Shown: positions 1,423 to 5,892, numbered from the stretch's first letter. The stretch: 19,408 bases of DNA from Escherichia coli (GCF_003334385.1 NZ_QOWN01000061.1); one strand, 5' to 3'. The notes: generated by a model not told the origin, from the letters alone. Numbers and translations: made by a program.

Positions 1423-1577
1423 AATAGTGATCTGTCATACATTTCTGCTATGTTGTGTATGGAAGCTGAAAGTTATGTAAATGTGCTAACATTAAACATA
1501 ACCATAACATTCAAGTCATCAATCTTTTCGTAGTCATAATCCTGGTCTATCAGAGAAATCACCACAATCCATTTAAA

Positions 1578-1596
1578 TGAATTTGATAATCATTCT
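1578..1596. promoter_or_regulatory. Fur box upstream of mntH
   Basis: gaatttGATAATCATTctc matches about 15 of 19 positions of the Fur consensus GATAATGATAATCATTATC, roughly 50-70 bp upstream of the mntH ATG. Iron repression of mntH is established. Confidence 0.55.
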
Positions 1597-1612
1597 CGTT
1601 TGGCATAGCATG

Positions 1613-1634
1613 AAACATAGCAAAGGCTATGTTT
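1613..1634. promoter_or_regulatory. MntR operator, a 9-4-9 palindrome
   Basis: AAACATAGC-AAAG-GCTATGTTT is a perfect inverted repeat ending 12 bp before the mntH ATG. It matches the MntR box I recall for the E. coli mntH promoter. Confidence 0.65.
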
Positions 1635-1637
1635 TAG

Positions 1638-2885
<1,248 letters not shown>

Positions 2886-2889
2886 TTGA

Positions 2890-3024
<135 letters not shown>

Positions 3025-3025
3025 T

Positions 3026-3352
3026 TTAATGGCGGTGCCCATGACCCCGGCCTTTTCCGCGATGATCGTCACGATCGCGCCAGCCTTCACGATAGCCACG
3101 CTCATACGCTTTACGCTTATCCCAGCCACGGTGGTAGCCATTATCATGACGCCACCAACGGTTTTTGCGCCACTCATAATTGCGATGCCAGTAGTCACGG
3201 TCGCGCCAGTGACCACCGTCCCAGTAATTACCGTAATGATCGCGATCGCCAATTTGTAATTTGATTGATGGCAGTAGGGTGATTTCACCTGCGTTTGCTG
3301 CAAGCGGGGTAAATGCCATCAGGGCGGCCGCCAGAAACAGTGACCTGAACAT
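3026..3352 (-). CDS. ypeC: Small secreted protein YpeC (DUF2502), 108 aa, with a signal peptide and a low-complexity R/D/W/H/Y/G-rich mature region
   Basis: Minus-strand ORF with AAGGAGA Shine-Dalgarno about 7 nt upstream of the ATG. N-terminal signal peptide [21 protein letters not shown] followed by a repetitive charged, Trp-rich sequence ending [12 protein letters not shown]. Confidence 0.88.
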
Positions 3353-3466
3353 TGTTATTCTCCTTCACGCTCGAAGCCGTCAGCGGCCTGTTAACGCAAT
3401 ATTACGGGGAGGTAAAGCCCCGTATCATCGCCATAACTCTTAAATCATAAAGGAGAGCATTTTTTG

Positions 3467-4723
3467 CTAAACGTTATCGTGGGGTGGCTGTTGCTTCGGA
3501 CGATTGACCATCATCATCGGCTTACCTGCTAATAACAGCCATGCCGGAAGCATGACGATACAGAGCAGCGGTAGCAATGTGGTATTGGGTACAACGACTG
3601 CCGCCATAAAAAGACTTAACCAGCCATCGCGTGTTACCACCAGCACGATGCCGAGAATAGCGCAAGAAACGGTTATTGCCGCTGGTACGGCGGGAACGTG
3701 CTCATGCAGCATCAACCCTAATGCCACGCCGACAAACACTGCCGGGAAGATTCGCCCACCGCGAAAGCCACTGGCGGCAGCAACGACCAGGGCGGCAAGT
3801 TTAATTACCGCCAGCAAAAAGTAATCGCTGGTGCTGAAAGCCTGATTTGCCACCATTTGCTGCATCTCATCCAGCCCTTTAAACAGCGAAACTGGTCCAC
3901 CAATAACCCCCAGAATACCGAGAATAAATCCGCCAATACCCAGCACGAGCACCGGATTTTTCATTTGATGCATCATCGCGTGCAACCGTGGTAAGCACCA
4001 TACGGCGACCATCCCTGCTGCGATGGCAATCGCCGCGACAATTGCACCGCTGAGAATATCGGTCATTTCCATCTGTCCGTAATGAGCAATGGGCAGTGAA
4101 AAATGAGGATGGAAAAATAATCCGGTAGTAAGTGCACCAGCTGCTGCCGCCATTAACGGCGCAAAGAGACGATCCCATAGCGGAACTTCACTACTGCCAT
4201 TTAAGGTTTGCGAAAATATCAACGCCGCCGCAACAGGAGTGCCAAACAGTGCGCCGATGGTTCCGGCAGAGGCTAAAATAGTCCACTCCATTCGGTTGAC
4301 GCGCGGTAACAGACGAGCGCCAATGGCAACCGCAAGGGCGATATTGACGGTCATGATCGGATGTTCCGGCCCCAGGCTGACGCCGCCAGCAAGACCGAGA
4401 ATTAATGCTACGATAAGTCCAGGTAGCGCAGAGGGCGGAACCGGTGCGCCGATCAGCGGTTCACAGGCGGGGTCTGGTCCGGCATGACCCTGGCTGAAAC
4501 GGATAACCAACCCCACCGCAATACCCGTTAGCGTTAATACACCGATGATCCAGAGGGGTGAATCCTGGGCTATCCCCAGAGTTCCCGGCAGTCGTTGCCA
4601 GAGCAAATTCTGTAATACCGAGGCGATTTTCATCACCACAATCAGAATAAGACTGGACGCAATCCCAATTGCCACGGCGGGGAGCGATAATAACAACATG
4701 GTTCTGGCTCGCGGATGGAGCAT
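3467..4723 (-). CDS. yfeO: Putative ion-transport membrane protein YfeO (ClC chloride-channel-like family), 418 aa
   Basis: 418-aa polytopic membrane ORF, Gly/Ala-rich helices. Identity and length match recalled YfeO; the family assignment is from memory. Confidence 0.85.
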
Positions 4724-4926: not shown

Positions 4927-5892
4927 ATGACAAAGTATGCATTAGTCGGTGATGTGGGCGGCACCAACGCACGTCTTGCTCTGTGTGATATTGCCAGTGG
5001 TGAAATCTCGCAGGCTAAGACCTATTCAGGGCTTGATTACCCCAGCCTCGAAGCGGTCATTCGCGTTTATCTTGAAGAACATAAGGTCGAGGTGAAAGAC
5101 GGCTGTATTGCCATCGCTTGCCCAATTACCGGTGACTGGGTGGCGATGACCAACCATACCTGGGCGTTCTCAATTGCCGAAATGAAAAAGAATCTCGGTT
5201 TTAGCCATCTGGAAATTATTAACGATTTTACCGCTGTATCGATGGCGATCCCGATGCTGAAAAAAGAGCATCTGATTCAGTTTGGTGGCGCAGAACCGGT
5301 CGAAGGTAAGCCTATTGCGGTTTACGGTGCCGGAACGGGGCTTGGGGTTGCGCATCTGGTCCATGTCGATAAGCGTTGGGTAAGCTTGCCAGGCGAAGGC
5401 GGTCACGTTGATTTTGCGCCGAATAGTGAAGAAGAGGCCATTATCCTCGAAATATTGCGTGCGGAAATTGGTCATGTTTCGGCGGAGCGCGTGCTTTCTG
5501 GCCCTGGGCTGGTGAATTTGTATCGCGCAATTGTGAAAGCTGACAACCGCCTGCCAGAAAATCTCAAGCCAAAAGATATTACCGAACGCGCGCTGGCTGA
5601 CAGCTGCACCGATTGCCGCCGCGCATTGTCGCTGTTTTGCGTCATTATGGGCCGTTTTGGCGGCAATCTGGCGCTCAATCTCGGGACATTTGGCGGCGTG
5701 TTTATTGCGGGCGGTATCGTGCCGCGCTTCCTTGAGTTCTTCAAAGCCTCCGGTTTCCGTGCCGCATTTGAAGATAAAGGGCGCTTTAAAGAATATGTCC
5801 ATGATATTCCGGTGTATCTCATCGTCCATGACAATCCGGGCCTTCTCGGTTCCGGTGCACATTTACGCCAGACCTTAGGTCACATTCTGTAA
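4927..5892 (+). CDS. glk: Glucokinase, 321 aa
   Basis: [20 protein letters not shown]-terminal ATP-binding motif of the ROK-like glucokinase family; full length 321 aa. Stop TAA at 5890-5892. Confidence 0.96.

What the first reader, a model, noticed from the sequence alone, without database searches (positions are those of the whole stretch)
3026..3352. YpeC: secreted low-complexity Arg/Asp/Trp/His-rich mini-protein next to the Mn/Fe transporter gene
After a canonical signal peptide, the mature ~87 residues are dominated by repeated RDRD, WHR, YER and GW units and end in a His-rich tail ([12 protein letters not shown]). This composition is typical of periplasmic metal-binding or envelope-stress proteins, but no function is assigned. 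It is encoded convergently with mntH and separated from it only by REP elements. Its repetitive codons also create long spurious ORFs on the opposite strand (3005-3259 and 3013-3264), a hallmark of low-complexity coding sequence.
Basis: partly seen in the sequence, partly recalled or inferred. Interest (0 to 1): 0.4.

Follow-up and report, generated by a model that had tools for sequence, protein, structure and literature searches.

The report
YpeC, an envelope-stress periplasmic mini-protein
This is the known but uncharacterised E. coli gene ypeC, which encodes a small exported protein made of a conserved Trp-rich mini-domain and a basic, His-rich tail; published data show it is switched on by envelope stress, and nothing found here ties it to metal transport.

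Summary
The ORF at 3026-3352 (- strand) is real. It is 100% identical to annotated E. coli ypeC and matches Pfam DUF2502 (E = 1e-23). It lies tail-to-tail with mntH across 140 bp of REP repeats.

The signal peptide, the R/G/D/H/W/Y bias, the His-rich end and both antisense ORFs are as described. Two points are overstated:
- **Repeated units.** WHR and YER occur once each, and k-mer repetition is no greater than in composition-preserving shuffles.
- **Low complexity.** Residues 22-70 form a conserved, confidently modelled small domain (motif GDRDxxGxYWDGxxWRD). Both this domain and the following segment 71-99 evolve at dN/dS of about 0.05.

The antisense ORFs follow automatically from the amino-acid composition.

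Published data place ypeC in the Rcs envelope-stress regulon and the MarA/SoxS regulon. I found the marbox at 3457-3471, conserved in 18 of the 19 genera compared.

No Fur, MntR or Zur site precedes ypeC. Next door, mntH has a Fur-like box and the MntR palindrome. The mntH adjacency is backbone synteny and is absent in Serratia, Yersinia and betaproteobacterial homologues. There is no fold or sequence relative outside the family.

Most likely role: a non-enzymatic periplasmic stress effector. Metal binding by the His tail is plausible but untested. This is a known gene of unknown function, of low to moderate interest.

The parts
3026..3352 (-). ypeC coding sequence (108 codons plus TAA stop)
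   Evidence: ORF list. 100% identical to annotated ypeC. Pfam DUF2502, E = 1e-23, full-length model match. Intact in all 80 orthologous loci. dN/dS about 0.05.
3290..3352 (-). Sec-type signal peptide, residues 1-21 ([21 protein letters not shown]), predicted cleavage after ANA
   Evidence: Rule-based check. Ala21 invariant and Pro16 nearly invariant in the family. No lipobox Cys and no twin-Arg motif (read from the sequence).
3143..3289 (-). Conserved 'YWDG' mini-domain, residues 22-70 ([48 protein letters not shown])
   Evidence: Invariant P28, G35, G41, W44, D45, G46. AlphaFold2 block-mean pLDDT 85-91 over residues 31-70, with short strands and one helix. dN/dS median 0.046. The module is duplicated in tandem in distant members.
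3056..3142 (-). Conserved basic segment, residues 71-99 ([29 protein letters not shown]); predicted disordered
   Evidence: pLDDT below 50, yet nearly invariant across Enterobacteriaceae genera. dN/dS median 0.044.
3029..3064 (-). His-rich C-terminal tail, residues 97-108 ([12 protein letters not shown]). The Gly/His part varies in length between genera
   Evidence: Sequence. In 80 orthologues the median is 5 His in the last 12 residues, and the tail after residue 70 is 34-49 residues long, with the length variation in the terminal Gly/His tract.
3457..3471 (+). marbox GCATTTTTTGCTAAA (MarA/SoxS binding site), about 105 bp upstream of the ypeC ATG, overlapping the yfeO stop codon
   Evidence: Same sequence as the ChIP-seq site reported for ypeC in E. 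coli (PMC5684230) and Salmonella (PMC10268841). Located in the window. Conserved as TTTAGCAAAAARTGC in 18 of 19 genera, degenerate in Siccibacter.
3435..3446 (-). Conserved upstream element GATTTA[AG]GAGTT with a TA[AG]GA half-site; candidate activator (RcsB?) site
   Evidence: The core TT-GAGT is invariant in the 19-genus alignment. It matches only 6 of 8 informative positions of the RcsB box at best. Function is inferred, not shown.
3399..3404 (-). Candidate -10 hexamer TAATAT with no good -35
   Evidence: Its T, A, A and T positions are invariant in the 19-genus alignment. The consensus promoter scan finds no full sigma-70 promoter in 2800-3600, which fits activator dependence. No transcription start data were examined.
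3375..3388 (-). Small conserved GC hairpin in the presumed 5' UTR (GGCCG-loop-CGGCC)
   Evidence: RNAalifold on 16 genera: 5 pairs, 2 with compensatory changes.
2886..3025 (.). mntH-ypeC spacer made of REP elements (hairpins 2914-2943 and 2970-3001)
   Evidence: Inverted repeats. Matches to the REP-derived Rfam model naRNA4 at 48.7 and 50.9 bits, below the gathering score of 59.5. 40 or more copies per E. coli genome. Other genera have only about 40-100 bp here.
3005..3264 (+). Two spurious antisense ORFs (3005-3259, 3013-3264)
   Evidence: Listed. They stay open in 100% of 2,000 synonymous recodings of YpeC, and about as often after shuffling the residue order.
2944..3303 (-). Spurious same-strand alternative-frame ORF (119 aa) that reads through the REP element
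   Evidence: It is the frame into which many frameshifted database entries of 113-165 aa run.

Best explanation
ypeC encodes a Sec-exported, soluble periplasmic protein of about 11 kDa in the DUF2502 family. The family is confined to Enterobacterales plus a few betaproteobacteria.

The protein has three parts:
1. A small Trp-rich, mostly beta mini-domain (residues 22-70, motif GDRDxxGxYWDGxxWRDxxWW). This is the only part conserved across the whole family.
2. A basic segment (residues 71-99) that is predicted disordered but strongly constrained.
3. A Gly/His tail of variable length.

The gene has its own activator-dependent promoter. That promoter carries a conserved marbox and a second conserved element. 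Expression is induced when the envelope is damaged (Rcs phosphorelay) and under MarA/SoxS-type stress.

Inferred mechanism: YpeC is too small and too motif-poor to be an enzyme, so it most likely acts stoichiometrically as a binder. The mini-domain and the constrained segment would dock onto an envelope partner. In the Enterobacteriaceae forms, the cationic His-rich tail would add pH- or metal-tunable affinity for anionic envelope material such as LPS, phospholipid, periplasmic glucans or capsule.

Shown here or in the literature: gene identity, export signal, architecture, purifying selection, and regulation. Inferred only: periplasmic location, binder role, nature of the ligand.
For: **Identity**
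- 100% match to annotated ypeC. Pfam DUF2502, E = 1e-23.

**Selection**
- Intact ORF in all 80 orthologous loci. dN/dS is about 0.05 for both the domain and residues 71-99.

**Architecture**
- Invariant P28/G35/G41/W44/D45/G46.
- AlphaFold2 block-mean pLDDT 85-91 for residues 31-70 and below 50 for residues 73-108.
- The module occurs twice in tandem in distant members.
- Only PF10697 is recorded on the 120 best family hits listed (of 579), all 84-174 aa, so no fusion to an enzymatic domain was seen.

**Regulation (published)**
- 42- to 60-fold induction with Rcs regulon genes (PMC5105897).
- 23.7-fold lower in an rcsB-disrupted strain (PMC5343319).
- The paralogue yaaX is in the RcsB regulon (PMC2731931, PMC3599342).
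- A Serratia homologue serves as an Rcs reporter promoter (PMC8470065).
- MarA and SoxS ChIP sites lie at ypeC.

**Regulation (tested here)**
- The marbox and a second element are conserved across the 19 genera compared, whichever gene lies upstream; the marbox is degenerate only in Siccibacter.

**Charge and composition**
- Net +7.5, 15 aromatic residues, GRAVY -2.1.
Against: - No experiment addresses location, ligand or phenotype.
- Net positive charge is not a family-wide trait: 23% of tails and 33% of mature proteins are neutral or acidic. The polycation idea can therefore hold only for the YpeC subgroup.
- No full RcsB box lies at a conserved place upstream; the best match is 6 of 8 informative positions. 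Rcs control may be indirect.
- The fold model covers only about 45 residues and has no structural neighbour outside the family. The fold therefore gives no clue to the ligand.
Confidence: 0.45

Rival explanations
1. One reading: YpeC is a periplasmic metal-binding protein (a buffer or metallochaperone for Mn, Zn, Ni or Cu). It would use its His/Asp-rich tail and be functionally coupled to the neighbouring Mn/Fe importer MntH.
For: - A His-rich C-terminus is maintained in 80 YpeC orthologues although its length drifts (median 5 His in the last 12 residues).
- 78% of 181 clean family members have at least 10% His in the tail. Many acidic tails are His plus Asp, which are typical metal ligands.
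- The convergent ypeC/mntH arrangement holds in about 68 of 79 informative Enterobacteriaceae loci, and also in members only 38-42% identical.
- The paralogue yaaX changes together with zraP and the cus genes in silver-adapted cusS mutants (PMC10920338).
Against: - No Fur, MntR, Zur or NikR-like site lies upstream of ypeC (12/19, 13/22, 14/23, 8/12, all at background level). mntH, 1.4 kb away, has the MntR palindrome and a 15/19 Fur box.
- The two genes are convergent with separate promoters.
- The adjacency is part of a wider conserved backbone (glk-ipdC-gpr-ypeC-mntH-nupC).
- The adjacency is absent where the family sits elsewhere: ihfA/btuCED in Serratia and Yersinia, unrelated genes in Chitiniphilus and Jeongeupia.
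- Yersinia and Serratia members have Asn/Gly/Gln-rich tails with few His.
- There is no homology to ZraP, SilE/PcoE, RcnB, ZinT or any solved metal-binding protein.
- All known regulation is envelope or xenobiotic stress, not metal.
Confidence: 0.18
2. YpeC is a ligand-unspecific 'hydrophilin' or chaperone-like shield. In this reading it is a very hydrophilic, Gly-rich, largely disordered periplasmic protein that limits aggregation or dehydration damage during envelope and osmotic stress. It would be functionally analogous to Spy or LEA-type proteins.
For: - GRAVY -2.1 and 15% Gly.
- The C-terminal 36 residues are predicted disordered.
- Family tails are always hydrophilic and low-complexity but vary in chemistry: His-, Pro- or Asn/Gly/Gln-rich.
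- ypeC is co-induced with spy, osmB and other osmotic-stress genes such as otsB and osmE (the yaaX passage of the same table).
Against: - The invariant YWDG domain and the near-invariant segment 71-99 (dN/dS about 0.05) point to a specific structure and partner rather than a bulk physicochemical role.
- There is no similarity to Spy/CpxP or LEA families.
Confidence: 0.15
3. The ORF is not a functional gene. Either it is a chance open frame in biased DNA, or one of the overlapping ORFs (3005-3259 +, 3013-3264 +, 2944-3303 -) is the real gene.
For: Four of the six frames are open across this stretch.
Against: - Substitutions between genera fall almost entirely on synonymous sites of the ypeC frame (dN/dS about 0.05 with saturated dS).
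- The ORF is intact in all 80 loci.
- The other frames stay open in 100% of synonymous recodings, so they carry no independent signal.
- There is a Shine-Dalgarno sequence (GGAG, 3360-3363) and a conserved promoter region.
- Strong regulated transcription is published.
Confidence: 0.01

Closest known systems
YaaX (E. coli b0005), the DUF2502 paralogue
   Same: - Same Pfam family and same signal peptide plus YWDG module. DNA is 74.8% identical over the module region.
- His-rich tail.
- Also Rcs-induced.
- Equally uncharacterised.
   Different: - It sits at a different locus.
- In the YaaX-like sequences retrieved (P0131, P0133) the tail after the module is Pro/His-rich. It lacks the YpeC-specific [18 protein letters not shown] segment.
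- No marbox has been reported for it in the papers I read.
ZraP / Spy / CpxP family (stress-induced periplasmic proteins; ZraP binds Zn)
   Same: - Small, exported and strongly induced by envelope stress.
- spy is co-induced with ypeC.
- ZraP is a Zn-binding periplasmic protein (from my own knowledge).
   Different: - No sequence or fold similarity.
- Those proteins are all-helical oligomers (from my own knowledge). YpeC is modelled as a small domain of short strands with one helix, plus a disordered tail.
SilE / PcoE-type periplasmic metal 'sponges' and other His-rich metal buffers
   Same: Exported, small, largely disordered and rich in metal-ligand residues.
   Different: - No homology.
- Those genes sit in metal-resistance operons and are metal-induced (from my own knowledge).
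- ypeC has its own stress promoter with no metal-regulator site.
Other small Rcs-induced envelope proteins (OsmB, YcfJ, Bdm, YpfG, Ivy, YmgD/YmgG)
   Same: Co-regulated in the same published experiments. Short, and mostly of unknown or binder/inhibitor function.
   Different: Unrelated in sequence. Several are lipoproteins, whereas YpeC has no lipobox.
REP / BIME elements
   Same: The spacer 2886-3025 consists of two oppositely oriented REP hairpins and recurs at 40 or more places per genome.
   Different: The repeats are not part of the gene. The weak extension of the Rfam match into codons 100-108 relies on a poorly paired stem with a 25-nt insertion. The His tail is conserved in genera whose spacer is only 40-100 bp.

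Membership tests
Pfam DUF2502 (PF10697) | Significant full-length match to the family HMM | tested here: met
   E = 1e-23, 83.8 bits, residues 23-106 on model positions 1-90 of 90.
Pfam DUF2502 (PF10697) | Signal peptide followed by the conserved IGDRDxxGxYWDGxxWRD core | tested here: met
   Invariant P28, G35, G41, W44, D45, G46 and A21 at the cleavage site, in alignments of 24 and 68 members.
Rcs (RcsB) envelope-stress regulon | RcsB-dependent expression | not testable with these tools
   Published only: down 23.7-fold in an rcsB-disrupted strain (PMC5343319); up 42- to 60-fold with Rcs genes under LolCDE inhibition (PMC5105897).
Rcs (RcsB) envelope-stress regulon | RcsB homodimer box TN(G/A)GAN4TC(T/C)NA in the regulatory region (PMC7913699) | tested here: not met
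   The best match within 210 bp upstream is 6 of 8 informative positions in E. coli. No conserved full box is present in 19 genera. A conserved TA[AG]GA half-site exists at 3435-3446. Direct control is therefore unproven.
mar/sox/rob regulon | marbox upstream of the promoter, bound by MarA or SoxS | tested here: met
   GCATTTTTTGCTAAA at 3457-3471 equals the published ChIP-seq site. It is conserved in 18 of 19 genera. Binding itself is from the literature.
Periplasmic metal-binding / metal-homeostasis proteins (ZraP, SilE/PcoE, RcnB, ZinT) | Sequence or fold homology to a known metal-binding family | tested here: not met
Periplasmic metal-binding / metal-homeostasis proteins (ZraP, SilE/PcoE, RcnB, ZinT) | Control by a metal-responsive regulator (Fur, MntR, Zur, NikR) | tested here: not met
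   Consensus scans upstream of ypeC stay at background level. mntH shows MntR 22/22 and Fur 15/19 as a positive control. The consensus sequences were recalled from memory, and the MntR one is the mntH site itself.
Periplasmic metal-binding / metal-homeostasis proteins (ZraP, SilE/PcoE, RcnB, ZinT) | Measured metal binding | not testable with these tools
   Only the His-rich tail (4 His in the last 12 residues; median 5 in orthologues) is seen.
REP/BIME repeats (the spacer only) | Imperfect GC-rich palindromes of about 35 nt, dispersed in many copies in intergenic regions | tested here: met
   Hairpins of 14-nt arms, 86% complementary. naRNA4/REP model matches at E = 1e-7 to 3e-7 in the 1.4-kb search, below the gathering score. 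40 or more places per genome.
True tandem/internal repeat protein | Repeated sequence units beyond what composition predicts | tested here: not met
   k-mer repetition equals that of shuffles for k = 2-4. A single repeated 5-mer, WRDRD, gives P = 0.06.

The most novel reading that the evidence does not exclude
The YWDG mini-domain is a previously unrecognised ligand-binding fold, and YpeC/YaaX are direct effectors of Rcs-mediated envelope protection. In this reading, the domain together with the constrained 'disordered' segment 71-99 would dock onto a specific envelope partner such as LPS, peptidoglycan, periplasmic glucans or an outer-membrane protein. The Gly/His tail would make that binding depend on periplasmic pH or on Zn, Ni or Cu. 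This would give a molecular role to one of the most strongly Rcs-induced genes of unknown function in enteric bacteria.
Probability: 0.2. Interest if true: 0.5.

Novelty: already known. Interest (0 to 1): 0.27.

Why it matters
ypeC is a core gene: the region was found in all 5,426 complete E. coli genomes searched. It is also among the most strongly induced genes when the Rcs envelope-stress system fires, and it is a direct MarA/SoxS target. Both pathways are linked to antibiotic tolerance, yet the protein has never been studied.

This analysis adds four things:
- A corrected architecture: a folded YWDG mini-domain, a constrained basic segment and a variable His tail.
- A conserved promoter layout.
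- A clear negative on the mntH/metal link.
- A warning that many database 'DUF2502' entries are frameshift chimeras.

It does not reveal a new kind of system.

Tried and rejected
- **NCBIfam and PADLOC scans.** No hits.
- **Domain fusions that might reveal function.** A profile of distant members found 579 proteins. The 120 best listed are all small and carry only PF10697. Two members ending in CPPGQAKKGNC hit no other Pfam family.
- **Gene neighbourhood as a clue to function.** The mntH adjacency is backbone synteny and is absent elsewhere.
- **Metal-regulator boxes upstream of ypeC.** None found.
- **RcsB box.** No conserved full box.
- **Internal repeats.** Not above the composition-shuffle expectation.
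- **The idea that the His tail derives from the adjacent REP element**, prompted by an Rfam match running into codons 100-108. Rejected, because the tail is conserved in genera with short spacers and is under purifying selection.
- **The idea that an overlapping ORF is the real gene.** Rejected.
- **Consensus promoter and terminator scan.** No sigma-70 promoter, and no terminator at the ypeC 3' end.

Full report
**What is there**

The window is E. coli chromosome. Its gene order is nupC (109-1350 -), mntH (1647-2885 +), a 140-bp spacer, the finding (3026-3352 -), yfeO (3467-4723 -) and glk (4927-5892 +).

A 1.2-kb stretch around the finding matches complete E. coli genomes at 100% identity. 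In those genomes the ORF is annotated 'ypeC: DUF2502 domain-containing protein YpeC'. All 5,426 genomes hold the region. The protein matches Pfam DUF2502 over the full model (E = 1e-23). It matches no NCBIfam or PADLOC model.

**Checking the observation**

The coordinates, strand and 108-aa product are exact.

The first 21 residues fit a Sec signal peptide by simple rules. There is one basic residue, a 12-residue hydrophobic core and Ala at -3 and -1. The -1 Ala is invariant in the family. There is no lipobox Cys and no twin-Arg motif. I had no dedicated signal-peptide predictor.

The 87-residue mature protein has R 16, G 13, D 10, H 9, W 8 and Y 7, a calculated pI of about 10, net charge +7.5 and GRAVY -2.1. 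The excess of W, R and H is far beyond chance against approximate proteome frequencies that I recalled from memory (P = 5e-5, 2e-5 and 2e-4). The tail [12 protein letters not shown] is present.

The 'repeated units' do not hold up. RDRD and GW occur twice, but WHR and YER occur once. Repeated 2- to 5-mers are no commoner than in shuffles of the same residues. This is bias in composition, not a repeat.

The spacer to mntH carries two oppositely oriented REP hairpins. These match the REP-derived Rfam model naRNA4 just below its gathering score. The spacer recurs at 40 or more places in each E. coli genome. Other genera have only about 40-100 bp here, so the longer REP-filled spacer is seen only in the Escherichia loci.

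**The extra ORFs**

Both antisense ORFs exist. So does a third extra one on the coding strand, 2944-3303.

I recoded YpeC 2,000 times with synonymous codons drawn from approximate E. coli codon usage. The two antisense frames stayed at least as open every time. Shuffling the residue order gave similar lengths.

The open frames are therefore forced by the amino-acid make-up; the biased core has no Leu, Ser, Val, Ile or Thr. They do not come from repeated codons, and they carry no evidence of their own.

Between genera, substitutions are concentrated at synonymous sites of the ypeC frame (dN/dS about 0.05 with saturated dS). This settles which frame is real.

One side effect is worth noting. Many database 'DUF2502' proteins of 113-165 aa are frameshift chimeras that switch into the alternative frame and read on through the REP element.

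**Anatomy of the protein**

Alignments of 24 and 68 family members show a sharply conserved N-terminal core, [33 protein letters not shown]. P28, G35, G41, W44, D45 and G46 are invariant.

AlphaFold2, run with the 68-sequence alignment, gives block-mean pLDDT of 85-91 for residues 31-70. The model has short strands and one helix. Residues 73-108 score below 50.

Distant members carry the module twice in tandem, as expected for an autonomous unit. So roughly half of the mature protein is a small Trp-packed domain, not low-complexity sequence.

Residues 71-99 ([29 protein letters not shown]) are predicted disordered. Yet they are almost invariant across Enterobacteriaceae genera and as constrained as the domain (median dN/dS 0.044 against 0.046). 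This pattern suggests a segment that folds on a partner.

Only the last stretch, a Gly/His tract, drifts in length. The region after residue 70 is 34-49 residues long in total. The tract keeps a median of 5 His in the final 12 residues.

**Family and distribution**

The family is small. There are 85 representatives at 50% identity in 1.84 billion proteins. A scan of one genome for each of 100,044 species returned 454 encoding stretches.

Named members come from several groups:
- Enterobacteriaceae
- Erwiniaceae
- Yersiniaceae
- Pectobacteriaceae
- Hafnia and Obesumbacterium
- A few betaproteobacteria (Chitiniphilus, Jeongeupia, Deefgea)

E. coli has one paralogue, yaaX.

A profile of distant members found 579 proteins. 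The 120 best listed are all 84-174 aa and carry PF10697 alone, so no domain fusion gives away the function.

Family-wide, the tails are always hydrophilic but chemically diverse. They are His-rich in 78% of members, Pro-rich in some, and Asn/Gly/Gln-rich in Yersinia and Serratia. Net charge is not conserved either: 23% of tails and 33% of mature proteins are neutral or acidic. The universal element is the YWDG module.

**Regulation**

Published work already places ypeC in two stress regulons.

*Rcs envelope-stress regulon:*
- ypeC rose 42- to 60-fold with a LolCDE inhibitor, next to wca genes, bdm, ycfJ and spy (PMC5105897).
- It fell 23.7-fold in an O157 strain with a disrupted rcsB (PMC5343319).
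- The paralogue yaaX is listed in the RcsB regulon and is induced by colicin M (PMC2731931, PMC3599342).
- A Serratia homologue's promoter is used as an Rcs reporter (PMC8470065).

*MarA/SoxS regulon:*
- MarA ChIP-seq in E. coli and SoxS ChIP-seq in Salmonella both place a marbox, GCATTTTTTGCTAAA, at ypeC (PMC5684230, PMC10268841).

I located that exact sequence at 3457-3471. It overlaps the yfeO stop codon.

Aligning 210 bp upstream from 19 genera gave the following conserved elements:
- The marbox, clear in 18 genera and degenerate in Siccibacter.
- A second element, GATTTA[AG]GAGTT (3435-3446).
- A TAATAT hexamer with no good -35 (3399-3404).

The gene upstream differs between genera. In most of them ipdC and gpr lie between yfeO and ypeC.

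A small GC hairpin lies in the presumed leader.

The RcsB homodimer box defined in PMC7913699 is not present as a conserved full match. The best match is 6 of 8 informative positions. Direct RcsB control therefore remains unproven.

**The metal idea**

Three tests came out negative.

1. *Regulatory sites.* The mntH promoter in this same window carries the MntR palindrome (1613-1634) and a 15/19 Fur box (1579-1597). The best matches upstream of ypeC are at background level. I recalled the consensus sequences from memory, and the MntR one is the mntH site itself, so that control is partly circular.
2. *Gene neighbourhood.*
   - The convergent ypeC/mntH pair is kept in about 68 of 79 informative Enterobacteriaceae loci.
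   - It is also kept for members only 38-42% identical.
   - It travels with the whole glk-ipdC-gpr-ypeC-mntH-nupC backbone.
   - The Serratia and Yersinia copies examined lie between ihfA and btuCED.
   - The betaproteobacterial copies have unrelated neighbours.
3. *Homology.* There is no similarity to any metal-binding family.

In favour of the idea remain two things. One is the maintained His-rich, often His plus Asp, tails. The other is a weak hint that yaaX changes together with zraP and the cus genes in silver-adapted cusS mutants (PMC10920338). A (Gly-His)n end will very probably bind Ni or Zn in vitro. Whether that is its job is unknown.

**Most likely mechanism**

Shown here or in the literature:
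- An exported small protein with a folded mini-domain, a constrained segment and a variable His tail.
- Strong purifying selection.
- A dedicated stress-responsive promoter.

Inferred:
- With no enzymatic features and about 11 kDa, YpeC most likely acts as a stoichiometric periplasmic binder during envelope stress.
- The domain and residues 71-99 would recognise a partner.
- In the Enterobacteriaceae forms, the cationic His tail would add pH- or metal-tunable affinity for anionic envelope material.

I give this about 0.45. A dedicated metal-homeostasis role linked to MntH gets about 0.18. A ligand-unspecific hydrophilin or chaperone role gets about 0.15. An artefact gets about 0.01. The remainder is for roles not imagined here.

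**Novelty and verdict**

The gene, its family and its regulation are already on record, and its function is not. Nothing here points to a new kind of system. The finding is a correct spotting of an understudied y-gene, with an over-reading of 'repeats' and of the mntH neighbourhood.

Interest is low to moderate (0.27). The main value is that a very strongly Rcs-induced, MarA/SoxS-bound core gene remains uncharacterised, and that its conserved YWDG domain has no known structural relative.

Noticed in passing
window 1577-1666 (+): RefSeq annotates a 29-aa small protein, YpeD ([29 protein letters not shown]). Its ORF overlaps the mntH start codon by 20 nt. It also lies across the Fur-like box (1579-1597) and the MntR palindrome (1613-1634).
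   Followed up: partly
window 3375-3388 (- strand): A conserved 5-bp GC hairpin (GGCCG-loop-CGGCC) lies in the presumed ypeC 5' leader. Two of the five pairs show compensatory changes across 16 genera. Raoultella has a 23-nt insertion in the loop.
   Followed up: partly
window 2944-3303 (-); proteins P0002-P0006, P0011, P0018, P0028, P0058, P0065, P0107: Many public 'DUF2502' proteins of 113-165 aa are frameshift chimeras. They join the YpeC N-terminus to the alternative same-strand frame, which stays open and reads through the REP element. One such cluster has 44 member sequences, including NCBI genomes. I did not determine whether these are sequencing errors or real pseudogenes.
   Followed up: no
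proteins P0160, P0164, P0170, P0173, P0194, P0198, P0199 and most Serratia/Yersinia/Rahnella members: Distant family members carry two YWDG modules in tandem. Their tails are Asn/Gly/Gln-rich or Pro-rich instead of His-rich. Two betaproteobacterial-type members end in a Cys-flanked CPPGQAKKGNC motif.
   Followed up: partly
L090, L091, L092 (Serratia, Yersinia); L088, L089 (Chitiniphilus, Jeongeupia): The Serratia and Yersinia DUF2502 copy sits between ihfA and btuC-btuE-btuD, just upstream of arnB/arnC-like genes. The betaproteobacterial copies have unrelated neighbours, which is compatible with horizontal acquisition.
   Followed up: partly
window 3435-3446 (- strand): An invariant upstream element, GATTTA[AG]GAGTT, lies between the marbox and the promoter. 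It has only a half-site resemblance to the RcsB box, although ypeC is one of the most RcsB-dependent genes.
   Followed up: partly
L001 (Rhizobium wenxiniae, 398-bp contig); L054 (Chryseobacterium sp.): ypeC loci appear in assemblies labelled as non-enterobacterial species. L001 is 100% identical to E. coli. L054 has the full enterobacterial yfeO-ypeC-mntH-nupC context. Both are most likely contamination or mislabelled assemblies.
   Followed up: no
AFDB entry A0A0B1RBG7 (Pantoea rodasii, 112 aa): A DUF2502 family member is annotated 'Zinc ABC transporter substrate-binding protein'. At 112 aa it cannot be one. The name was probably transferred through its His-rich stretch.
   Followed up: no
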